Made by a program: the position numbers and the translations under genes. The notes below the pieces were generated by a model. It was not told the DNA's origin. It saw only the letters and a list, made by a program, of their open reading frames with translations, and did no database searches. This document shows positions 23,279 to 41,846 of a stretch of DNA of 64,000 nt, piece after piece (position 1 is the stretch's first letter; every line of letters starts with the position of its first letter). The stretch lies in the sequence record NC_105825.1; one strand, written 5' to 3'. Source of the stretch: Escherichia phage ECOP18.

Positions 23279-23303
23279 ATTTTATTTCCTATTTAAGTTA
23301 ATT

Positions 23304-23380
23304 TGGGGTGGCTAGTGAAATTCGAATCCACATAGGCCTGATTCACAATCAGGATCATTAACCAATTATGATATAGCCAC
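23304..23380 (-). tRNA. tRNA-His (GTG)
   Basis: Acceptor GTGGCTA/TAGCCAC, anticodon stem CCTGA/TCAGG, loop TTGTGAA, T-loop TTCGAAT, discriminator C, CCA; no encoded G-1. Confidence 0.6.
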
Positions 23381-23611
23381 AATTGAAAACTCGCAGGGTT
23401 AGCGAAACCTTCCTCAATTAGCATGTTCTAGAATACTAATCAAGTTATCTCCTATTGCACGCAGCTCAAGACGAGTACGAATTTTCAATTGTGGCGGCTC
23501 TCAGAAACTCTTCTACTCTAGTCTTAGCAGCTTACTCCCGAACGCATGTCGGGGAAGTCTTACTAAGCGCATCAAATAGCACCGTTACACTTTGAGCCAT
23601 TGGTGTATTAA

Positions 23612-23700
23612 GAAGCAGAAGGACTTGAACCTTCACGAGATAGACCATTTATCTCAGCCGCTTTATGAGGTATGTTGCAGGGAGTGGATGTTCCCTATAA
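23612..23700 (-). ncRNA. tRNA-like element (T-arm GAAGG-TTCAAGT-CCTTC), no clean cloverleaf found
   Basis: Strong T-arm motif but I could not pair an acceptor stem by eye. Confidence 0.25.
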
Positions 23701-23746
23701 ACCTTTTAGGCAGCCCCGTCTACCGATTCCGGCATACTTCAGGATT

Positions 23747-23841
23747 TGGAGGTAGGTAAGGGGATCGAACCCTTACACCGTATCACTACGATCAACCGAT
23801 TTCAAGTCGGAGTCCAGCGCCAGCCATTGGATTGACCTACC
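23747..23841 (-). tRNA. tRNA-Ser (TGA), type II
   Basis: About 95 nt; acceptor GGTAGGT/ACCTACC, anticodon stem CCGA/TCGG, loop CTTGAAA, long variable arm, CCA. Confidence 0.5.
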
Positions 23842-23853
23842 ATATAAATTGTT

Positions 23854-23944
23854 TGGCGGAAGAGGAGAGATTTGAACTCTCAAGCCGTTTTACCAGTCAG
23901 CCACTTTCCAAGCGGTTTTCGTCACCAATTCGATTTGCTCTTCC
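23854..23944 (-). tRNA. tRNA-Ser (GGA), type II
   Basis: 91 nt; acceptor GGAAGAG/CTCTTCC perfect, T-arm GAGAG-TTCAAAT-CTCTC, anticodon loop TTGGAAA, CCA. Confidence 0.5.
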
Positions 23945-23964
23945 AATAACAAGATGATGCCTCT

Positions 23965-24045
23965 ATCACACCAGGCAGTTACGCCTCGCTGGGATTCGAA
24001 CCCATTAAAACAGCTCAACCGAGATAGTAGGTTTAATTTACTCTG
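23965..24045 (-). ncRNA. tRNA-like fragment (T-arm TGGG-TTCGAAT-CCCA) without a pairable acceptor
   Basis: T-arm motif only. Confidence 0.25.
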
Positions 24046-24056
24046 ACCATCAAATT

Positions 24057-24133
24057 TGGTGCGTGACAAGGGATTCGAACCCTCAAAACCCGACTTCTAA
24101 GGACGGTATGTATGCCAATTCCATCAATCACGC
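24057..24133 (-). tRNA. tRNA, type I length, anticodon loop reads CTTAGAA (UAG)
   Basis: Acceptor GCGTGAT/GTCACGC, T-arm GAGGG-TTCGAAT-CCCTT, CCA; D-arm weak; a Leu-type anticodon in a short-variable-arm scaffold. Confidence 0.45.
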
Positions 24134-24138
24134 GTATT

Positions 24139-24217
24139 TGGTGGAGAATAACGGAATCGAACCGTTCTGATGTCCTCGGTGCAAGCGAGGTGTCCACTCC
24201 ATGCAGACCCATTCCCC
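24139..24217 (-). tRNA. tRNA-Ala (TGC)
   Basis: Acceptor GGGGAAT/ATTCTCC with a G3-U70 wobble, anticodon stem CCTCG/CGAGG, loop CTTGCAC, CCA. Confidence 0.6.
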
Positions 24218-24455
24218 AAATTATTTAGTTTACTAAGGCTATTAGCTCGGCGTAACTACAGCACCTTCGCTTCGAGCGGAAGGAACCGCGTCATCTCGCA
24301 AACCCGATACACTATTCAGTTGCCACTGAATCTAGTGGACTAATCTAGAACTTCTCCCGAATCGTAGGGATCGTGCTTTTTGGCAGCCAGTCCTAGGTCG
24401 AACTAATACCTTAGTGAACTATGATGAGGATTTCTCCTCATCAATTTATATAAAT

Positions 24456-24484
24456 ATTATAACAAGAAATTAAGCATTAAGCAA
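24456..24484 (-). promoter_or_regulatory. early sigma70-type promoter (TTGCTT-17-TATAAT) driving a non-coding leader and tRNAs
   Basis: Same architecture; no CDS for about 240 nt downstream on the minus strand. Confidence 0.55.
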
Positions 24485-24502
24485 CTGCGTTTTTCTTGAA
24501 AT

Positions 24503-24581
24503 TGGTAGATCGCCTGGGACTCGAACCCAGAACCTTCCGATTAAAAGTCGGATGCTACTAAACCTATTGAGCTAGCGATCT
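24503..24581 (-). tRNA. tRNA-Lys (TTT)
   Basis: Acceptor AGATCGC/GCGATCT, anticodon stem TCCGA/TCGGA, loop CTTTTAA, T-arm CTGGG-TTCGAGT-CCCAG, CCA. Confidence 0.6.
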
Positions 24582-24586
24582 ATTAG

Positions 24587-24750
24587 TAACCATTATACAC
24601 TTCTTTAATAGAGTGGACTTTTAAGTAAGGGTGATTAGTACTAAACTCTACCATTACTTCATCCCAATTTTTACCATAATGAGCGAGTAAGGATTTTGAT
24701 GTATTCTTACCTAACCGTTTGTCACTTACTACTAATCGAAATACTTTCAT
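24587..24750 (-). CDS. small hypothetical protein (54 aa)
   Basis: Hand-translated MKVFRLVVSDKRLGK...; below the ORF-track cutoff. Confidence 0.3.
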
Positions 24751-24770
24751 TTCGAAATCCTCTATTAAAA

Positions 24771-24848
24771 TGGAAGCGGGTGCAGGAATCGAACCTACCT
24801 CTTTCTAGCTTATGAGACTAGCGATCTCTACCAGAGATCTAACCCGCA
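24771..24848 (-). tRNA. tRNA with CAT anticodon (Met/fMet/Ile2)
   Basis: D-stem GATC/GATC, anticodon stem CTAGT/GCTAG, loop CTCATAA, T-loop TTCGATT, CCA; U1-U72 unpaired. Confidence 0.55.
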
Positions 24849-24854
24849 ATTGTT

Positions 24855-24930
24855 TGGTCAGTGCGGCAGGACTCGAACCTGCGACCCGAAGCATCCAAGG
24901 CTCCCACGCTACCAACTGCGCTACGCACTG
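24855..24930 (-). tRNA. tRNA-Pro (TGG)
   Basis: Acceptor CAGTGCG/CGCACTG, D-stem GCGC, anticodon stem GGAGC/GCTTC, loop CTTGGAT, CCA. Confidence 0.6.
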
Positions 24931-24939
24931 TTAATTCTT

Positions 24940-25137
24940 TTATTGTGGAGGAATATTAATAATTCGTCCGTCTACACAATAAACGGTACTAGGAATTGTA
25001 CTATATATGTAGAAATTCTTTATATTACTCTCTCCGCCACAGAAATTTTTAGCAAATTCATACTCTTTATTAATGGTTGAGTCAAGTTTAAAACAACCAG
25101 TAAGTAGGAATACAGACAGCAGTAAAACTTTTTTCAT
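24940..25137 (-). CDS. small lipoprotein
   Basis: 65 aa; signal peptide with lipobox LLTGC; RBS in the leader. Confidence 0.5.
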   Translation of the reverse strand: MKKVLLLSVFLLTGCFKLDSTINKEYEFAKNFCGGESNIKNFYIYSTIPSTVYCVDGRIINIPPQ

Positions 25138-25169
25138 TTTGCTTTCCTTCTCAACACTTTATAAGGTAT

Positions 25170-25198
25170 ATTATACAGAGAATTAAGCATAATAGCAA
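25170..25198 (-). promoter_or_regulatory. early sigma70-type promoter (TTGCTA-17-TATAAT)
   Basis: Same architecture. Confidence 0.6.
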
Positions 25199-25337
25199 AT
25201 GAATTTTTAATAAATTTACTTATTGTGTAGGCCACCTGGAGGCTACCAACCCCACGGCTGACAAAGAAGTTTGCGAGACCTCTCTTAAGTGCCAGAATAG
25301 ACCCGCCGATCTATCGGAACCTACATAATAAGTAAAC

Positions 25338-25470
25338 TTTATAGTGTCATTCTAGACAGGACTCGAACCTGTTATCACTTGTGCGGACTTACGAGAACCA
25401 TTCTTTCACTCGAATCGAACGAGCTTCTGCCCTCGCCAAGCTGGTTTCCCCATCAACCACGCTAGAATGT
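25338..25470 (-). ncRNA. roughly 130-nt tRNA-like structured RNA, unresolved
   Basis: Ends ATTCTAG...CTAGAAT pair perfectly; two T-arm-like motifs (TTCGATT and TTCGAGT) inside; no CDS. Confidence 0.3.
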
Positions 25471-28805: not shown

Positions 28806-28884
28806 TTGGTGGCTCCCCGAGGATTCGAACCTACGTACCTTCCGGTTATGAGCCGGGTGCTCATACCATATGAGCTTGAGAACC
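28806..28884 (-). tRNA. tRNA with CAT anticodon (third CAT tRNA)
   Basis: Acceptor GGTTCTC/GGGAGCC with G-U pairs, D-stem GCTC/GAGC, anticodon loop CTCATAA, T-loop TTCGAAT, CCA; T-stem weak. Confidence 0.45.
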
Positions 28885-31466: not shown

Positions 31467-31479
31467 TTAAATACAGAAA

Positions 31480-31510
31480 AGCCCGCGCTCTCGTAGGAAA
31501 CGCGGGCTTG
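31480..31510 (-). terminator. rho-independent terminator (convergent)
   Basis: cccgcg...cgcggg hairpin followed by a U-run on the minus transcript after the SPFH gene. Confidence 0.55.
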
Positions 31511-31532: not shown

Positions 31533-32480
31533 TTACTTGTTACGCATATCCATGATCATTTGACCATCGTAGCCAGTACCTACCACAGTCTGAGGTACAC
31601 CACCTTGATACTTCTGAGCACGGATCATTTCAACTTCCAGTTGTTTCCAACGAATCATTTCAGGAGTAATGGTACGTTGCAATGCGGCGTTAGCTTCAGC
31701 TTCTTTCTTAGCTGCGTACAGTTTAGCATCTGCGTCACGTTCATTAGCAATAGCTTGGTTGTTACGAGCTTCACGATCTGCTTCTGCTTGTTTAACTTTT
31801 TGCTGTGCTTCCTGTTCAACGCGAGCAAGTTCAGCTTTCGCAGCATTAACTTGCTCTTCACGAACTTTGGTATTCTGTACCTGTTCCATGATTACTGGCG
31901 GCAAGGTAATATCCTGAAGGAATACCTGCTTAACTGTGTAACCATATGGGCGCGCATACTCTTCAACTTCCTGTTGAATTGCAGTTTGCAATTGAGCCTG
32001 AATTTTAGCATCAAATAAATCTTGTGCTTTAGGTACAGACTTACCAAACTCACGAATAGTAGACAGTAATTTTTCAGTTACATACTTGTCTAGTGCCTGA
32101 TCCTGAGTACCTGCGTTAATACGGTTAATCGGTGCTTTAGAACCATCAAACTGCAACATAACAGTCAGGTCAACAGTGGATTTAAACTTATCCTGGCTAG
32201 GAACCTGAAGTTTATCTAATTTTACAGCAATATCTTTTGTACTAAAAGTATCGAAAGATGCAAACGGGTTTACAAGATGGAAGCCCGGCAATACTGGATT
32301 AGGGTCTACTTTACCCAGGAATGTTTGGGTTTTAACCGTACCATCAGAAACAATAGTATATGAATTAAAAGCTAGGATTAAACCTGCTAAACCAACTACA
32401 GCACCAATACCCCAACGTTTAATAGTACGAATTACTTTCTGCTCAGAAGTCAGTTCTTTCATATTTTTAGTAGCAAACAT
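31533..32480 (-). CDS. SPFH/band-7 (stomatin/prohibitin/HflKC-like) membrane protein
   Basis: 315 aa; N-terminal TM helix, then an Ala/Gln/Glu-rich coiled-coil region typical of SPFH proteins; assigned by overall architecture. Confidence 0.5.
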   Translation of the reverse strand: MFATKNMKELTSEQKVIRTIKRWGIGAVVGLAGLILAFNSYTIVSDGTVKTQTFLGKVDPNPVLPGFHLVNPFASFDTFSTKDIAVKLDKLQVPSQDKFKSTVDLTVMLQFDGSKAPINRINAGTQDQALDKYVTEKLLSTIREFGKSVPKAQDLFDAKIQAQLQTAIQQEVEEYARPYGYTVKQVFLQDITLPPVIMEQVQNTKVREEQVNAAKAELARVEQEAQQKVKQAEADREARNNQAIANERDADAKLYAAKKEAEANAALQRTITPEMIRWKQLEVEMIRAQKYQGGVPQTVVGTGYDGQMIMDMRNK

Positions 32481-32513
32481 ATATTTCCTTTGTTTTAGTT
32501 ACAGTTAATAAAA

Positions 32514-32589
32514 TTGGCCGAGGTGACAGGATTCGAACCTGCATAAAGGAATTTAGAAGACTCCTGCCTCTCCCTTAGACTACACCCCG
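32514..32589 (-). tRNA. tRNA-Arg (TCT)
   Basis: 76 nt; acceptor CGGGGTG/CACCTCG, anticodon stem GGAGT/ATTCC, loop CTTCTAA, T-loop TTCGAAT, CCA. Confidence 0.5.
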
Positions 32590-33084
32590 TTTAAGTATTT
32601 TTAAGAACTCTCGTAAAAACTCTTAAAAATACAGACGATACCGGGAGAGTCATAAGTCTCACTCATTAAGTATTTCAAGACAAAATACAGTAACGTCTAT
32701 TATTTTCCAGTTTAAGTCAGGGTGACTTAGTGGTTATGTCCTGCGGTATATTGAGGACTCGGTTAGGCTTGGGGTCATGACTTCCCACCTTTTGCTGCTA
32801 CTCAACAGGAGTTATCGCGAATTACCTGTGCTATTGTGCACCATTAGTGACATCTCTCATGTCAGCATTTCCCACTTTGTGGATAGCTTGAAAAACTACT
32901 CCGATATGGAGAAAGAACTTCACTATCCTAGAATACCTTCTAAAGTTCTTCTTTAGCCTGGACATAGTTAAATCGTAATAAAACTATTCAGCAGACTGGT
33001 TGGTTAGTCTGGAACCAACTACCGCGTGGTTTAGGCAGTGCGCAACTAACCTCGGAAGCTTTTATGTTAAAAGCATCAGTTATC

Positions 33085-33170
33085 CAGTTCTTACCGACCG
33101 TAGGATTCGAACCTACATCTTCCACCAGTTACGGCTTGATAATACCAATTATACTAGGACGGCAGTGTTA
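33085..33170 (-). ncRNA. tRNA-like element (T-arm GTAGG-TTCGAAT-CCTAC), no clean cloverleaf
   Basis: T-arm motif inside an 830-bp ORF-free stretch that is transcribed from the promoter at 33387. Confidence 0.25.
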
Positions 33171-33386
33171 CTACATAAGTGATTTCCACACCCCACTATT
33201 TATAAATCAGAGAAGAGTTTAGGGGAGAGGTTTCAGACGCCTCATTTTACACGTTCTAGCCACTAACCGGGATTGCCGCCCCCTGTGTACTAGTTTTACA
33301 ACTAACCCACCGACTCTATTCAATGCGCTCCGGTTGGGATTCTGCACTCAGCGTAATCGGCTCGCTGTTCCCTAATTTATGAATAT

Positions 33387-33415
33387 ATTATACAGAATTT
33401 ATAAGCATTTAGCAA
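33387..33415 (-). promoter_or_regulatory. early sigma70-type promoter (TTGCTA-17-TATAAT) driving a non-coding region
   Basis: Same architecture; nothing coding downstream until tRNA-Arg. Confidence 0.55.
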
Positions 33416-33423
33416 ATGAATTT

Positions 33424-33858
33424 TTAGAAAAATTCACTAGCAATCAAAGCAGTTGTTTTACCGTCATAACGTCCGGGAAATTCTGCCTTAATAGTTTTCA
33501 TTAATAGAGCTTTGGTAATACCTGGGTTTAATTTAACCAGTTCTGCAAAATACTCACGAATCTGAACCTCAGTCAGTTGACTTGGCTGATACTCTTGCAG
33601 CATGGAATAAAGCAGTTGCTCATAGTCTACATCAGTAGGAACTTCCATACCAACTTTAATAGCGCGTTGTTTTGCATTTTCTAGAGCCTTAATCTGAGCT
33701 TTCAGATAGGCTACGAACTCGGTTCGAGTAACAATGTCTTTATCAATACGTTGCAGATCACCAATCATGGTCTGAAGATTAAGTGCCCGTTCCTTATCAC
33801 CGTGAGTACGTGCTAGACTAAGTAGTGCACGAAGGGTCATTAGAATATTTTCACCCAT
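33424..33858 (-). CDS. hypothetical protein
   Basis: ORF track 144 aa. Confidence 0.5.
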   Translation of the reverse strand: MGENILMTLRALLSLARTHGDKERALNLQTMIGDLQRIDKDIVTRTEFVAYLKAQIKALENAKQRAIKVGMEVPTDVDYEQLLYSMLQEYQPSQLTEVQIREYFAELVKLNPGITKALLMKTIKAEFPGRYDGKTTALIASEFF

Positions 33859-40704: not shown

Positions 40705-41846
40705 AAGAAATCTCCAAATTCATTACCCAGATCTTTCAGAGTATCAGTAGAGGTTTCGGTGACTTGACCTACACGATATGCTGCACCAATCTGGATTTCT
40801 TGTGGAGCAGGCTGTAAAGAAGTGGTATCCAGCCAGTTCATGATCCACGGAATGGGGTTCTTGGTGATTACTGGTAAATGACTAGGCCATTCTACACCAA
40901 TGTGCATAAATGCATTACGCCCCACAAAGTACAGATATTCTTCTAGAAGTTCTGCATTCAAGCCAATCAGACTACGACCTTTGAAAATGAAATGACCCCA
41001 TTCAATTTCAGTTTTCAAAGTTTTCAGGAGCTGTGCTGGTGCTTTAGCCACTGCTTCATCTACCAGATCTTTGTCAAACTGCTGGAACATAATCTGGATG
41101 ATTGCTTTGGACATCTGAGTGTGCAGAGCTTCATCTTTAGCGATTAATTGCAGATTTTTAGCAATACCTTGCAGAATATCGTTCTCTGCTAATGCAAAGG
41201 TACATGCAAAGGATGCGTAAAACTGCATTGCTTCCAGACCATAGATCGCAAAGTAAGCGTCTAATAGTTTAGCCTGAGTTTCACGTTTAACTTCAGGGAA
41301 CTCAGTTTCTGGATATGTATTGTCGCCACGATGATCGCGTACTGCGATGAAATACTGACCTAACTGATATAGCTCATCAAATAGCTCAACAGAATCAGCG
41401 ATTCGTGCGAATGCTTCCTGGTTTTTGGTTACAGAATCAATAAATTCTGCTGGGTCAGTCAGCACATTACGAATAATATTACTATAAGCACGACTATGCA
41501 GATCTTCGAAGTAGCTCCACTGCTTGAGCATACCTTCCAATTCTGGACGGCTTACAAGCGGCATAATAGCTGCTTCAGGGGCACGACTGATAAAGGAGTC
41601 GGTTTGGGTTTGCCATGCTAAGTTCAGGAGTGTAATTTCCTGAATTTCACGTGGGAGATTAGGCCATTGTTTCTTATCTGCTTCCAGACTGATTTCAGTT
41701 TCAGTCCAAAATTGAGAGCGTTGCAGTAGTGCCAGACGTTCTAGTTCTGAATGTGCTACACGTACATAATCTGCGATACCGAGAGAATCTCCCAGGAAAA
41801 GGTCAGCGTTAGTATGATCCCAATTCAGGTTTAGTAAAGTAGTCAT
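40701..41846 (-). CDS. nrdB: ribonucleotide reductase class Ia beta subunit
   Basis: 381 aa ferritin-like protein with conserved E/H iron ligands; directly downstream of nrdA. Confidence 0.75.
   Translation of the reverse strand: MTTLLNLNWDHTNADLFLGDSLGIADYVRVAHSELERLALLQRSQFWTETEISLEADKKQWPNLPREIQEITLLNLAWQTQTDSFISRAPEAAIMPLVSRPELEGMLKQWSYFEDLHSRAYSNIIRNVLTDPAEFIDSVTKNQEAFARIADSVELFDELYQLGQYFIAVRDHRGDNTYPETEFPEVKRETQAKLLDAYFAIYGLEAMQFYASFACTFALAENDILQGIAKNLQLIAKDEALHTQMSKAIIQIMFQQFDKDLVDEAVAKAPAQLLKTLKTEIEWGHFIFKGRSLIGLNAELLEEYLYFVGRNAFMHIGVEWPSHLPVITKNPIPWIMNWLDTTSLQPAPQEIQIGAAYRVGQVTETSTDTLKDLGNEFGDFL

What the first reader, a model, noticed from the sequence alone, without database searches (positions are those of the whole stretch)
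32590..33420. 830-bp ORF-free region transcribed from an early promoter
The promoter at 33387-33415 points into a region with no ORF of 60 aa or more on either strand until tRNA-Arg at 32514-32589. The region has higher GC than its surroundings, several hairpins and one tRNA-like T-arm, so it may encode one or more structured non-coding RNAs.
Basis: inference. Interest (0 to 1): 0.5.

Follow-up and report, generated by a model that had tools for sequence, protein, structure and literature searches.

The report
Phage T5 RNAX structured RNA gene
The ORF-free stretch is the already annotated but never explained "RNAX" gene of T5-like phages, a roughly 790-base non-coding RNA that comparison across related phages shows folds into several conserved domains, one carrying a degenerate tRNA.

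Summary
A near-consensus sigma-70 promoter (33387-33415, minus strand) reads into about 790 nt without a conserved ORF, ending at tRNA-Arg (32515-32589). GenBank already annotates this locus as misc_RNA rnaX, "stable RNA with unknown functions", in T5, BF23, phage 5 and DT571/2. The feature is therefore already known. No Rfam family other than tRNA matches it, and I found no paper on it. Comparison with about 40 distinct relatives (Tequintavirus, Epseptimavirus, Sugarlandvirus, Erwinia phage KEY, Pectobacterium phage DU_PP_V) shows a modular RNA. It has a 5' hairpin, two domains each closed by a GUGG/CCAC helix, and a 17-bp 3' hairpin. Covariation is strong: domain 1 is 92% paired with 23 of 44 pairs changed on both sides; domain 2 is 91% paired with 17 of 25. 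Domain 1 carries a tRNA-like element (Rfam 35.5 bits) on a long covarying stem. That element looks like an intact tRNA-Pro in one relative and is replaced by a plain hairpin in others. Indels are not multiples of three and ORFs are not conserved, so the region is not coding. The T5 st0 deletion removes it, so it is dispensable in the laboratory. Function is inferred only: a stable scaffold RNA, possibly self-associating through palindromic loops, comparable to GOLLD and ROOL.

The parts
33387..33415 (-). Early sigma-70 promoter (P16-17 of T5): -35 TTGCTA at 33415-33410, 17-nt spacer, -10 TATAAT at 33392-33387. The transcription start is inferred near 33380.
   Evidence: Annotated as promoter P16-17 in AJ604531, AY543070 and NC_042564. 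Conserved in Erwinia and Pectobacterium phages.
32590..33380 (-). RNAX non-coding RNA, about 790 nt. Transferring the annotation from AJ604531 gives 32590-33374.
   Evidence: 99-100% identical to records that annotate misc_RNA rnaX. No Rfam family other than tRNA matches.
33203..33380 (-). 5' hairpin P0: 13 bp between 33380-33368 and about 33215-33203. A roughly 150-nt accessory module (33367-33216) sits in its apical loop and is absent from T5 itself.
   Evidence: T5 has the plain hairpin AUAAAUUAGAGAG/CUUCUCUAAUUUAU. L020 shows compensatory changes (AGAUG/CAUCU).
33026..33196 (-). Domain 1. It is closed by P1, GUGG (33196-33193) paired with CCAC (33029-33026). It contains a long arm P2-P4, an invariant internal loop AACACU/NAAGA, an acceptor-like stem P5, hairpin P6, and hairpin P7 whose loop holds UGCGCA (33044-33039).
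   Evidence: Alignment A3: 44 pairs, 92.4% of cells paired, 23 pairs changed on both sides (3-11 when partners are slid). P2-P4 are 99.8% paired. P1 covaries: AUGG/CCAU in bobsandoy and ACGG/CCGU in DU_PP_V.
33092..33163 (-). tRNA-like element embedded at the tip of the domain 1 arm. It has a 7-bp acceptor-like stem with a conserved U.U mismatch, a covarying T arm with GGUUCGAAUCC, a D arm, a degenerate anticodon arm (3 bp, 6-nt loop), and no CCA.
   Evidence: Rfam RF00005 at 35.5 bits. Not called by ARAGORN. In the relatives it varies: a 50-bit tRNA-Pro(UGG)-like element in Erwinia phage KEY, an extra long arm in Klebsiella phages, and a plain hairpin in EPS7, L029 and L046.
32876..33025 (-). 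Variable linker between the two domains. It is lineage-specific and contains local hairpins.
   Evidence: It is replaced by unrelated sequence of similar length in Epseptimavirus.
32730..32875 (-). Domain 2. It is closed by GUGG (32875-32872) paired with CCAC (32733-32730) and holds four covarying hairpins, Ha to Hd.
   Evidence: Alignment A2: 25 pairs, 91% of cells paired, 17 pairs changed on both sides (3-8 when slid). Covariance model R1 scores 173.6 bits here and 74-172 bits in relatives, with no other match in the window.
32815..32820 (-). Self-complementary UCGCGA in the 15-nt apical loop of hairpin Hb.
   Evidence: The loop keeps a palindrome in most lineages, but with different sequences: UCGCGA, CGCGCG (T5), CUCGAG (bobsandoy, L029) and UCCGCGGA (Klebsiella). 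Only CGCG remains in KEY, Trudi and L027.
32774..32781 (-). Invariant self-complementary GUCAUGAC in the apical loop of hairpin Hc (GGAGUCAUGACC).
   Evidence: Invariant in all 33 aligned sequences and in DU_PP_V. It occurs only once in the RNA.
32595..32632 (-). 3' terminal hairpin: 17 bp capped by a UACG tetraloop. It lies 5 nt upstream of tRNA-Arg.
   Evidence: It is the most conserved segment by BLAST, 92-100% identical from Pectobacterium to E. coli phages. In relatives that carry an inserted ORF it still ends the non-coding part.
32515..32589 (-). tRNA-Arg(UCU). It is co-transcribed downstream, and its 5' end is the annotated 3' boundary of RNAX.

Best explanation
The region is the rnaX gene of T5-like phages.

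Shown:
- It lies between the early sigma-70 promoter P16-17 and tRNA-Arg, and it does not encode a conserved protein.
- It specifies a modular RNA whose helices are maintained by compensatory changes across three lineages of Demerecviridae.
- The modules are a 5' hairpin, domain 1 (a GUGG/CCAC-closed junction bearing a long stem tipped by a tRNA-like element), a variable linker, domain 2 (a GUGG/CCAC-closed four-hairpin junction) and a 17-bp 3' hairpin.

Inferred biogenesis (about 0.6):
- Host RNA polymerase transcribes RNAX together with tRNA-Arg and the downstream SPFH gene.
- RNase P cleavage at the 5' end of tRNA-Arg releases RNAX.
- The terminal hairpins protect both ends, which would explain why it was recorded as a stable RNA.

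Inferred function (about 0.3, the likeliest single option):
- It acts as an RNA scaffold in the manner of the large phage RNAs GOLLD and ROOL of tRNA islands.
- It may self-associate through the self-complementary apical loops of domain 2, with the embedded tRNA as a dispensable passenger.
- It is an accessory function, not needed for growth on laboratory E. coli.
For: Identity:
- 99-100% identical over its full length to phages whose records annotate rnaX.
- T5 itself annotates rnaX at 40848..41566 between P16-17 and tRNA-Arg.

Structure:
- RNAalifold finds 26 pairs in the core, 11 of them with compensatory changes.
- Domain 1: 92.4% of cells paired, 23 of 44 pairs changed on both sides, covariation score 0.292 against 0.04-0.06 for slid controls.
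- Domain 2: 91.0% paired, 17 of 25 pairs changed on both sides, score 0.361 against 0.03-0.08.
- The closing helices covary in bobsandoy and DU_PP_V.

Not coding:
- Core lengths of 128, 153, 154, 167 and 168 nt differ by non-multiples of three.
- ORFs are not conserved in position or length.

Breadth and synteny:
- The same arrangement (cell-wall hydrolase, then promoter, then 0.7-1.8 kb of ORF-poor DNA with a pseudo-tRNA, then the AU hairpin, then tRNA-Arg) occurs in Klebsiella, Erwinia and Pectobacterium phages.

Stability features:
- 5' P0 hairpin and 3' 17-bp hairpin.

Resemblance to GOLLD and ROOL:
- Those RNAs are large phage RNAs near tRNA islands. tRNAs are sometimes embedded in the GOLLD linker, and the assemblies are held by kissing loops (PMC12286853).
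- Here an invariant GUCAUGAC loop and a loop that keeps a palindrome under sequence change each occur once per RNA.

Dispensability:
- The st0 deletion mutant lacks the whole region.
Against: - No direct transcript data could be found. 'Stable RNA' rests on a GenBank note, not on a paper I could read.
- Single-sequence folding is no more stable than shuffles (z = -0.79).
- Rfam GOLLD and ROOL models do not match, so any relation to them is by analogy only.
- Six-base palindromes are common by chance (about 12 expected in 790 nt). Three lineages keep only CGCG in the Hb loop, so the self-association idea is weakly supported.
- The covariation comes from only about 5-6 independent lineages, and the modules are exchanged by recombination.
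- Long variable inserts and lineage-specific linkers fit a string of separate small RNAs as well as they fit one large fold.
Confidence: 0.6

Rival explanations
1. RNAX is a precursor, not the final product. RNase P, RNase E or RNase III would cut it into several small stable RNAs: the tRNA-like element, and the domain 1 and domain 2 units of about 150-170 nt. These would resemble the 100-170-nt stable RNAs (RNAI, RNAIII, RNA1, RNA2 and others) encoded elsewhere in the T5 tRNA cluster.
For: - Each domain is separately closed by a short helix, and the linkers between them are variable.
- The domain sizes match the annotated T5 small stable RNAs, which also pair their ends.
- The tRNA-like element keeps an acceptor stem and T arm, the features RNase P recognises (established knowledge), and they covary.
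- The 17-bp hairpin could be an RNase III site.
Against: - GenBank annotators recorded one RNA of 719-785 nt.
- Leader and trailer of the tRNA-like element are held in a 13-bp covarying stem. That stem would keep the halves together after any cut.
- EPS7-type phages lack the tRNA-like body entirely but keep the platform.
Confidence: 0.22
2. RNAX is a tRNA mimic, acting as a decoy or sponge. It would titrate a host tRNA-targeting defence nuclease or a tRNA-binding enzyme, or be bound by the YqeY-like protein encoded just upstream, so protecting translation during infection.
For: - The tRNA-like element has a conserved elbow (GG in the D loop, UUCGAAU T loop), a covarying T stem and a conserved U.U in the acceptor stem.
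- T5 tRNAs are known to counter the tRNA-cleaving defences PARIS and retron Eco7 (PMC11464382; PMC10644984).
- The upstream ORF gives weak but repeated YqeY (GatB tail domain) matches.
Against: - The tRNA-like body is the least conserved part. It is replaced by a plain hairpin in EPS7, L029 and L046, and it scores below the Rfam threshold in Klebsiella phage FZ41 at 26.6 bits.
- The anticodon loop, the usual nuclease target, is degenerate.
- Klebsiella phages have no YqeY-like ORF at this position.
- The YqeY matches are all below Pfam's cut-off.
Confidence: 0.12
3. The region is a long 5' leader that controls processing or expression of the downstream tRNA-Arg and SPFH/band-7 gene in cis.
For: - It always lies upstream of tRNA-Arg in the same transcription unit.
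- No terminator separates them; the next terminator is at 31479-31509.
Against: - The downstream neighbour varies: a 169-aa ORF, or two small ORFs, are inserted between the 3' hairpin and tRNA-Arg in many relatives.
- About 790-1800 nt with multi-domain covariation is far beyond known bacterial leaders.
- The unit has its own conserved 3' hairpin.
Confidence: 0.07
4. The region encodes one or more small proteins, for example the 42-45-aa sense ORFs or the 59-60-aa antisense ORFs.
For: - ORFs of 42-60 aa exist on both strands.
- Some automated annotations 'hypothetical proteins' here.
Against: - ORFs differ in position, frame and length between relatives.
- Indels within the most conserved core are 1, 14, 15 and 25 nt.
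- Substitutions follow base-pairing rather than codons.
- The AUG inside the invariant loop opens a 14-codon frame here but only a 2-codon frame in Epseptimavirus (alignment).
Confidence: 0.03
5. The region is non-functional spacer DNA, a graveyard of decayed tRNA genes, similar among phages only through recent common ancestry.
For: - It contains a degenerate tRNA.
- It is mosaic with large indels.
- It is deletable.
- Its MFE z-score is not significant.
Against: - Pairing is kept at 91-92% with many double changes across lineages that are only 70-80% identical.
- Blocks remain invariant between subfamilies.
Confidence: 0.03

Closest known systems
rnaX ('RNAX, stable RNA with unknown functions') annotated in phage T5 (AY543070/NC_005859), BF23 (NC_042564), Salmonella phage 5 (AJ604531) and DT571/2 (NC_047749)
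   Same: - Same position between promoter P16-17 and tRNA-Arg, and the same strand.
- 99-100% identity to the phage 5 and BF23 type.
- 91-98% identity to T5 in the shared parts.
   Different: - The window carries the 785-nt form, with a module of about 150 nt inside the 5' hairpin loop. T5 (719 nt) lacks that module and has an extra insert of about 64 nt in its 3' tail.
- The records give no structure or function.
GOLLD RNA (large phage and prophage RNA of tRNA islands)
   Same: - Phage-encoded, 0.7-1.8 kb, multi-domain and covarying.
- Sits in a tRNA island.
- A tRNA is embedded in a variable part.
- There is a better conserved 3' portion.
- Function unknown (PMC12286853).
   Different: - No match to the Rfam model.
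- Different helices and sequence motifs, and different hosts (Enterobacterales phages).
- Oligomerisation is untested here.
ROOL RNA (large phage RNA near tRNA islands that forms a nanocage)
   Same: - Phage-encoded large structured RNA near tRNA genes.
- In ROOL, conserved loop-loop (kissing) contacts hold the assembly together. RNAX has conserved self-complementary apical loops.
   Different: - No Rfam match.
- No evidence for pseudoknots or for a cage.
- The palindromic loops are only a hint.
Small stable RNAs of the T5 tRNA cluster (RNAI, RNAIII, RNA1, RNA2, RNA2H, RNAIV). From my own knowledge, the species 1 and species 2 RNAs of T4 are comparable.
   Same: - Non-tRNA stable RNAs of unknown function, co-transcribed with phage tRNAs.
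- Their ends pair.
- Some are tRNA-like.
   Different: - They are 100-170 nt. RNAX is 4-7 times larger.
- The domain 2 model finds no paralogue among them.
tRNA (Rfam RF00005), specifically a tRNA pseudogene
   Same: The embedded element has an acceptor stem, D arm and T arm, and passes the Rfam threshold. The relative in Erwinia phage KEY looks like tRNA-Pro(UGG) at 50 bits.
   Different: - In the window the anticodon arm is 3 bp with a 6-nt loop.
- There is no CCA.
- The leader and trailer are locked in a conserved helix.
- ARAGORN rejects it.

Membership tests
T5 rnaX (RNAX stable RNA) | Lies between early promoter P16-17 and tRNA-Arg(UCU), on the same strand | tested here: met
   Promoter at 33415-33387. 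tRNA-Arg at 32515-32589. The layout is identical in the annotated records.
T5 rnaX (RNAX stable RNA) | Sequence homology to the annotated rnaX over its length | tested here: met
   99.3% identity over 831 of 831 nt to AJ604531. For T5, 91.5% and 98.6% in the shared blocks.
T5 rnaX (RNAX stable RNA) | Accumulates as a stable RNA in infected cells | not testable with these tools
   Only the GenBank note is available. No paper was found.
tRNA (RF00005), embedded element 33092-33163 | Covariance-model score at or above the gathering threshold | tested here: met
   35.5 bits against 29.
tRNA (RF00005), embedded element 33092-33163 | Canonical anticodon arm (5-bp stem, 7-nt loop) giving a readable anticodon | tested here: not met
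   The stem is 3 bp (GCC/GGU) with the 6-nt loop GUAACU. ARAGORN makes no call here. Annotators label it tRNA-OTHER or pseudo.
tRNA (RF00005), embedded element 33092-33163 | Free 5' and 3' ends with a 3' CCA | tested here: not met
   The 3' side continues as AAGAACUGG with no CCA. Both flanks are paired in the covarying helices P2-P4.
GOLLD RNA | Match to the family covariance model | tested here: not met
   cmscan reported no match to this family, at E up to 10 on the window locus and up to 1 on four long relatives.
GOLLD RNA | Large covarying phage RNA in a tRNA island, sometimes with a tRNA in a variable region | tested here: met
   The family description is from PMC12286853.
GOLLD and ROOL RNA | Forms a homo-oligomeric RNA-only assembly | not testable with these tools
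   The only hint is the self-complementary apical loops.
ROOL RNA | Match to the family covariance model | tested here: not met
   cmscan reported no match to this family.
Protein-coding gene (small ORF) | Reading frame conserved among relatives | tested here: not met
   Indels of 1, 14, 15 and 25 nt occur in the conserved core. ORFs are not conserved.

The most novel reading that the evidence does not exclude
RNAX would be the founding member of a third class of large, ornate phage RNAs of tRNA islands, after GOLLD and ROOL, specific to Demerecviridae. It would be built from GUGG/CCAC-closed domains around an embedded, decaying tRNA, and it would assemble into dimers or higher oligomers through its conserved self-complementary loops. 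It sits in T5, which is genetically tractable, so the unknown function of such RNAs could be tested directly.
Probability: 0.25. Interest if true: 0.8.

Novelty: already known. Interest (0 to 1): 0.55.

Why it matters
- T5 is a classic model phage, yet its largest non-coding RNA has no published structure, no Rfam family and no known function.
- This analysis shows that the RNA is conserved, with compensatory base changes, across at least three lineages of Demerecviridae.
- It shares its genomic setting, size class and embedded tRNA with GOLLD and ROOL, whose roles are also unknown.
- T5 infects E. coli K-12, and the locus is already known to be deletable. RNAX is therefore a convenient system for asking what large RNAs of phage tRNA islands do.
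- At the least, the locus deserves a curated RNA family, so that automated annotation stops calling spurious 'hypothetical proteins' and 'tRNA-OTHER' there.

Tried and rejected
- Rfam scans of the locus, the whole window and 12 relatives gave only tRNA matches.
- Single-sequence folding gave z = -0.79, so thermodynamics is uninformative here.
- Literature searches for RNAX, T5 stable RNAs and a T5 transcriptome found nothing on this RNA.
- A pattern scan of 185,579 bacterial and archaeal genomes for the domain 2 signature gave 0 hits. IMG/VR and metagenome scans returned only T5-like contigs.
- RNAalifold on the raw domain 2 alignment gave a poor consensus because divergent clades were misaligned. 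I replaced it with a manually derived structure and then tested that structure.
- RNAalifold proposed an alternative closing helix for domain 1, UGGG paired with the segment after P6. I rejected it in favour of GUGG/CCAC, because only the latter shows compensatory changes, in bobsandoy and DU_PP_V.
- I dropped a possible extra hairpin in domain 2 (GUGC/GCAC) because T5 does not keep it.
- The domain 2 covariance model found no paralogue in the window and nothing in non-T5-like phages that share the SPFH gene. It detects the DU_PP_V copy only weakly, at 10.8 bits.
- Small-ORF coding and 'junk spacer' readings were considered and rejected.
- A link to the upstream YqeY-like ORF was explored but stays sub-threshold and is not universal.

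Full report
**Observation**

The window is a T5-like phage. The query region is 100% identical to Escherichia phage T5_ev212 and has 394 megablast hits among Tequintavirus and Epseptimavirus records.

- A TTGCTA-17-TATAAT promoter lies at 33415-33387 on the minus strand.
- tRNA-Arg(tct) lies at 32515-32589 on the minus strand.
- Between them there is no ORF above 60 aa. One antisense TTG ORF of exactly 60 aa exists at 33000-33182.
- The stretch 32481-33423 is the second-longest stretch of the window free of ORFs of at least 61 aa.
- GC is 0.41 against 0.36-0.39 in the immediate flanks.
- Rfam finds a tRNA-like element at 33092-33163 on the minus strand, 35.5 bits against a threshold of 29. ARAGORN does not call it.

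**What it is**

GenBank already names this locus.

- AJ604531 (Salmonella phage 5) annotates misc_RNA rnaX, 'stable RNA with unknown functions', 785 nt, from promoter P16-17 to the first base of tRNA-Arg.
- The T5 reference AY543070 does the same, at 719 nt. So do BF23 record NC_042564 and DT571/2.
- A second T5 record marks only a pseudo-tRNA.
- Automated annotations give 'tRNA-OTHER' or several hypothetical proteins.
- The T5 st0 deletion mutant lacks the whole segment, from T5.068 into the ORF upstream of the promoter. RNAX is therefore dispensable for laboratory growth.
- I found no paper on RNAX in the searchable library.

**Comparative anatomy**

I collected relatives from IMG/VR, metagenomes and GenBank. 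The distance from promoter to tRNA-Arg ranges from 673 to about 1800 nt, and the locus is mosaic. The following blocks recur.

- The promoter and the first 35 nt or so of the transcript.
- A core around the tRNA-like element.
- A second core about 300 nt further on.
- An AU-rich hairpin at the 3' end.

The same layout occurs in Klebsiella Sugarlandvirus phages, Erwinia phage KEY and Pectobacterium phage DU_PP_V of the subfamily Mccorquodalevirinae. That layout is cell-wall hydrolase, small ORFs, promoter, a long ORF-poor stretch with a pseudo-tRNA, the hairpin, then tRNA-Arg.

**Domain 1 (33196-33026)**

RNAalifold on 37 distinct sequences predicted 26 pairs, 11 of them with compensatory double changes and almost none broken.

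I extended the alignment to include DU_PP_V (alignment A3) and counted a 44-pair model.

| Measure | Observed | Controls |
|---|---|---|
| Cells paired | 92.4% | 33-39% with partners slid |
| Pairs changed on both sides | 23 of 44 | 11.1 in shuffles; 3-11 slid |
| Covariation score | 0.292 | 0.04-0.06 slid |

The arm P2-P4 is 99.8% paired, and 7 of its 12 pairs covary. The domain is closed by GUGG/CCAC. That helix becomes AUGG/CCAU in bobsandoy and ACGG/CCGU in DU_PP_V.

Above an invariant internal loop (AACACU opposite NAAGA) sits a 7-bp acceptor-like stem with a conserved U.U mismatch. This stem carries the tRNA-like body.

- The T stem covaries: GUAGG/CCUAC, GCAGG/CCUGC, GUGGG/CCCAC and AUAGG/CCUAU.
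- In the window, the anticodon arm is only 3 bp with a 6-nt loop, and there is no CCA.
- In Erwinia phage KEY the body looks like an intact tRNA-Pro(UGG), at 50 bits.
- In Klebsiella phages it has an extra long arm.
- In EPS7, L029 and L046 it is replaced by an unrelated hairpin, while the platform is retained.

**Domain 2 (32875-32730)**

Domain 2 is also closed by GUGG/CCAC, which is ACGG/CCGU in DU_PP_V. It has four hairpins.

On alignment A2, a 25-pair model is 91.0% paired. Seventeen pairs changed on both sides, and the covariation score is 0.361 against 0.03-0.08 for slid controls. A covariance model built from it (R1) scores 173.6 bits here and 74-172 bits in relatives. It finds nothing else in the window and nothing in unrelated phages that share the SPFH gene.

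Two apical loops are self-complementary.

- GGAGUCAUGACC is invariant everywhere.
- The 15-nt Hb loop keeps a palindrome under sequence change: UCGCGA, CGCGCG, CUCGAG and UCCGCGGA. Only CGCG remains in three lineages.
- Each palindrome occurs once per RNA, so no partner is available within the same molecule.

**The two ends**

- The first 13 nt of the transcript pair with 33215-33203.
- In T5 this is a simple hairpin. In the window a roughly 150-nt module sits in its loop, and L020 shows compensatory changes.
- The 3' end is a 17-bp hairpin with a UACG loop (32632-32595), 5 nt before tRNA-Arg.
- That hairpin is 92-100% identical from Pectobacterium to E. coli phages. It still ends the non-coding part in relatives where an ORF follows it.

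**Not coding**

- Core lengths of 128, 153, 154, 167 and 168 nt differ by non-multiples of three.
- ORFs differ in frame and extent among relatives.

**Weak points**

- MFE is not better than shuffles (z = -0.79).
- The covariation derives from about 5-6 lineages that also exchange modules.
- Transcript stability rests on an annotation note alone.

**Mechanism**

*Shown:* this is a conserved, modular, structured RNA gene under a conserved early promoter.

*Inferred (about 0.6):* it is co-transcribed with tRNA-Arg, released by RNase P at the tRNA 5' end, and protected by its terminal hairpins.

*Function is unknown.* My preferred reading (about 0.3) is a scaffold RNA of the GOLLD/ROOL kind that may self-associate through the palindromic loops.

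- Those RNAs are large, phage-encoded and near tRNA islands.
- They sometimes carry tRNAs in a linker, and they are held together by kissing loops (PMC12286853).
- Rfam models for them do not match here, so this is a resemblance in kind, not membership.

*Rivals:*

- A precursor of several small stable RNAs, like the other T5 small RNAs, which are present in the window at 23382-25469.
- A tRNA-mimic decoy, possibly linked to the weakly YqeY-like ORF upstream.
- A cis-acting leader for the downstream genes.
- Small proteins.
- Junk spacer DNA.

**Verdict**

The feature itself is already annotated, so its novelty is 'already known'. Its conserved architecture, its breadth across Demerecviridae and its resemblance to the enigmatic large phage RNAs are not recorded in Rfam or in any paper I could find. 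Interest is moderate, at 0.55.

Noticed in passing
window 33424-33858 (-): The 144-aa ORF just upstream of the RNAX promoter gives weak, sub-threshold matches to the YqeY/GatB-tail family (PF09424). The E-value is 3e-3 here and 9e-6 to 5e-5 in three relatives; T5's own allele gives no match. The ORF exists as very divergent alleles (52-59% aa identity) in phages whose RNAX is over 95% identical.
   Followed up: partly
window 23382-25469 (-): Orthologues of six annotated T5 small stable RNAs (rnaIII, rnaI, rna1, rna2H, rnaIV, rna2; 86-99% identity) lie among the tRNA genes. The stretch 23297-24849 is the longest ORF-free stretch of the window. All six fold with paired ends, and rnaI ends in GCCA.
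   Followed up: partly
window 28810-28884 (-): Rfam reports a tRNA at 40.3 bits that ARAGORN does not list. It probably corresponds to the tRNA-Ile2(CAU) annotated next to tRNA-Ser3 in T5.
   Followed up: no
L053 2087-2596; L100 2301-2810; also L027, L029, L090: Several relatives carry a conserved 169-aa ORF of unknown function inserted between the RNAX 3' hairpin and tRNA-Arg. Klebsiella phages have two small ORFs there instead.
   Followed up: no
L105 1930-1933 with 2142-2145, and about 2268-2271 with about 2421-2424: In Pectobacterium phage DU_PP_V, both domain-closing helices changed in parallel from GUGG/CCAC to ACGG/CCGU. This suggests that a common factor or a shared constraint reads both helices.
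   Followed up: partly
window 33022-32990 (-): In the linker after domain 1, the loop CCAGACU of the hairpin GUUGGUU/AACCAAC is complementary to the following AGUCUG. This is a possible H-type pseudoknot. The stem covaries in bobsandoy, but the downstream partner is absent there.
   Followed up: no
window 33039-33044 (-): The 7-nt loop of hairpin P7 in domain 1 contains a third self-complementary hexamer, UGCGCA. It is UACGUA in UTK0009. It is not conserved in L027 or in the expanded P7 of other lineages.
   Followed up: partly
window 31479-31509: A strong terminator-like hairpin (12 bp, 7 GC) lies at the end of the SPFH/band-7 gene (31533-32480). It matches the 'bidirectional terminator ter1' annotated in T5, phage 5 and BF23, and it marks the end of the RNAX, tRNA-Arg and SPFH transcription unit.
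   Followed up: no
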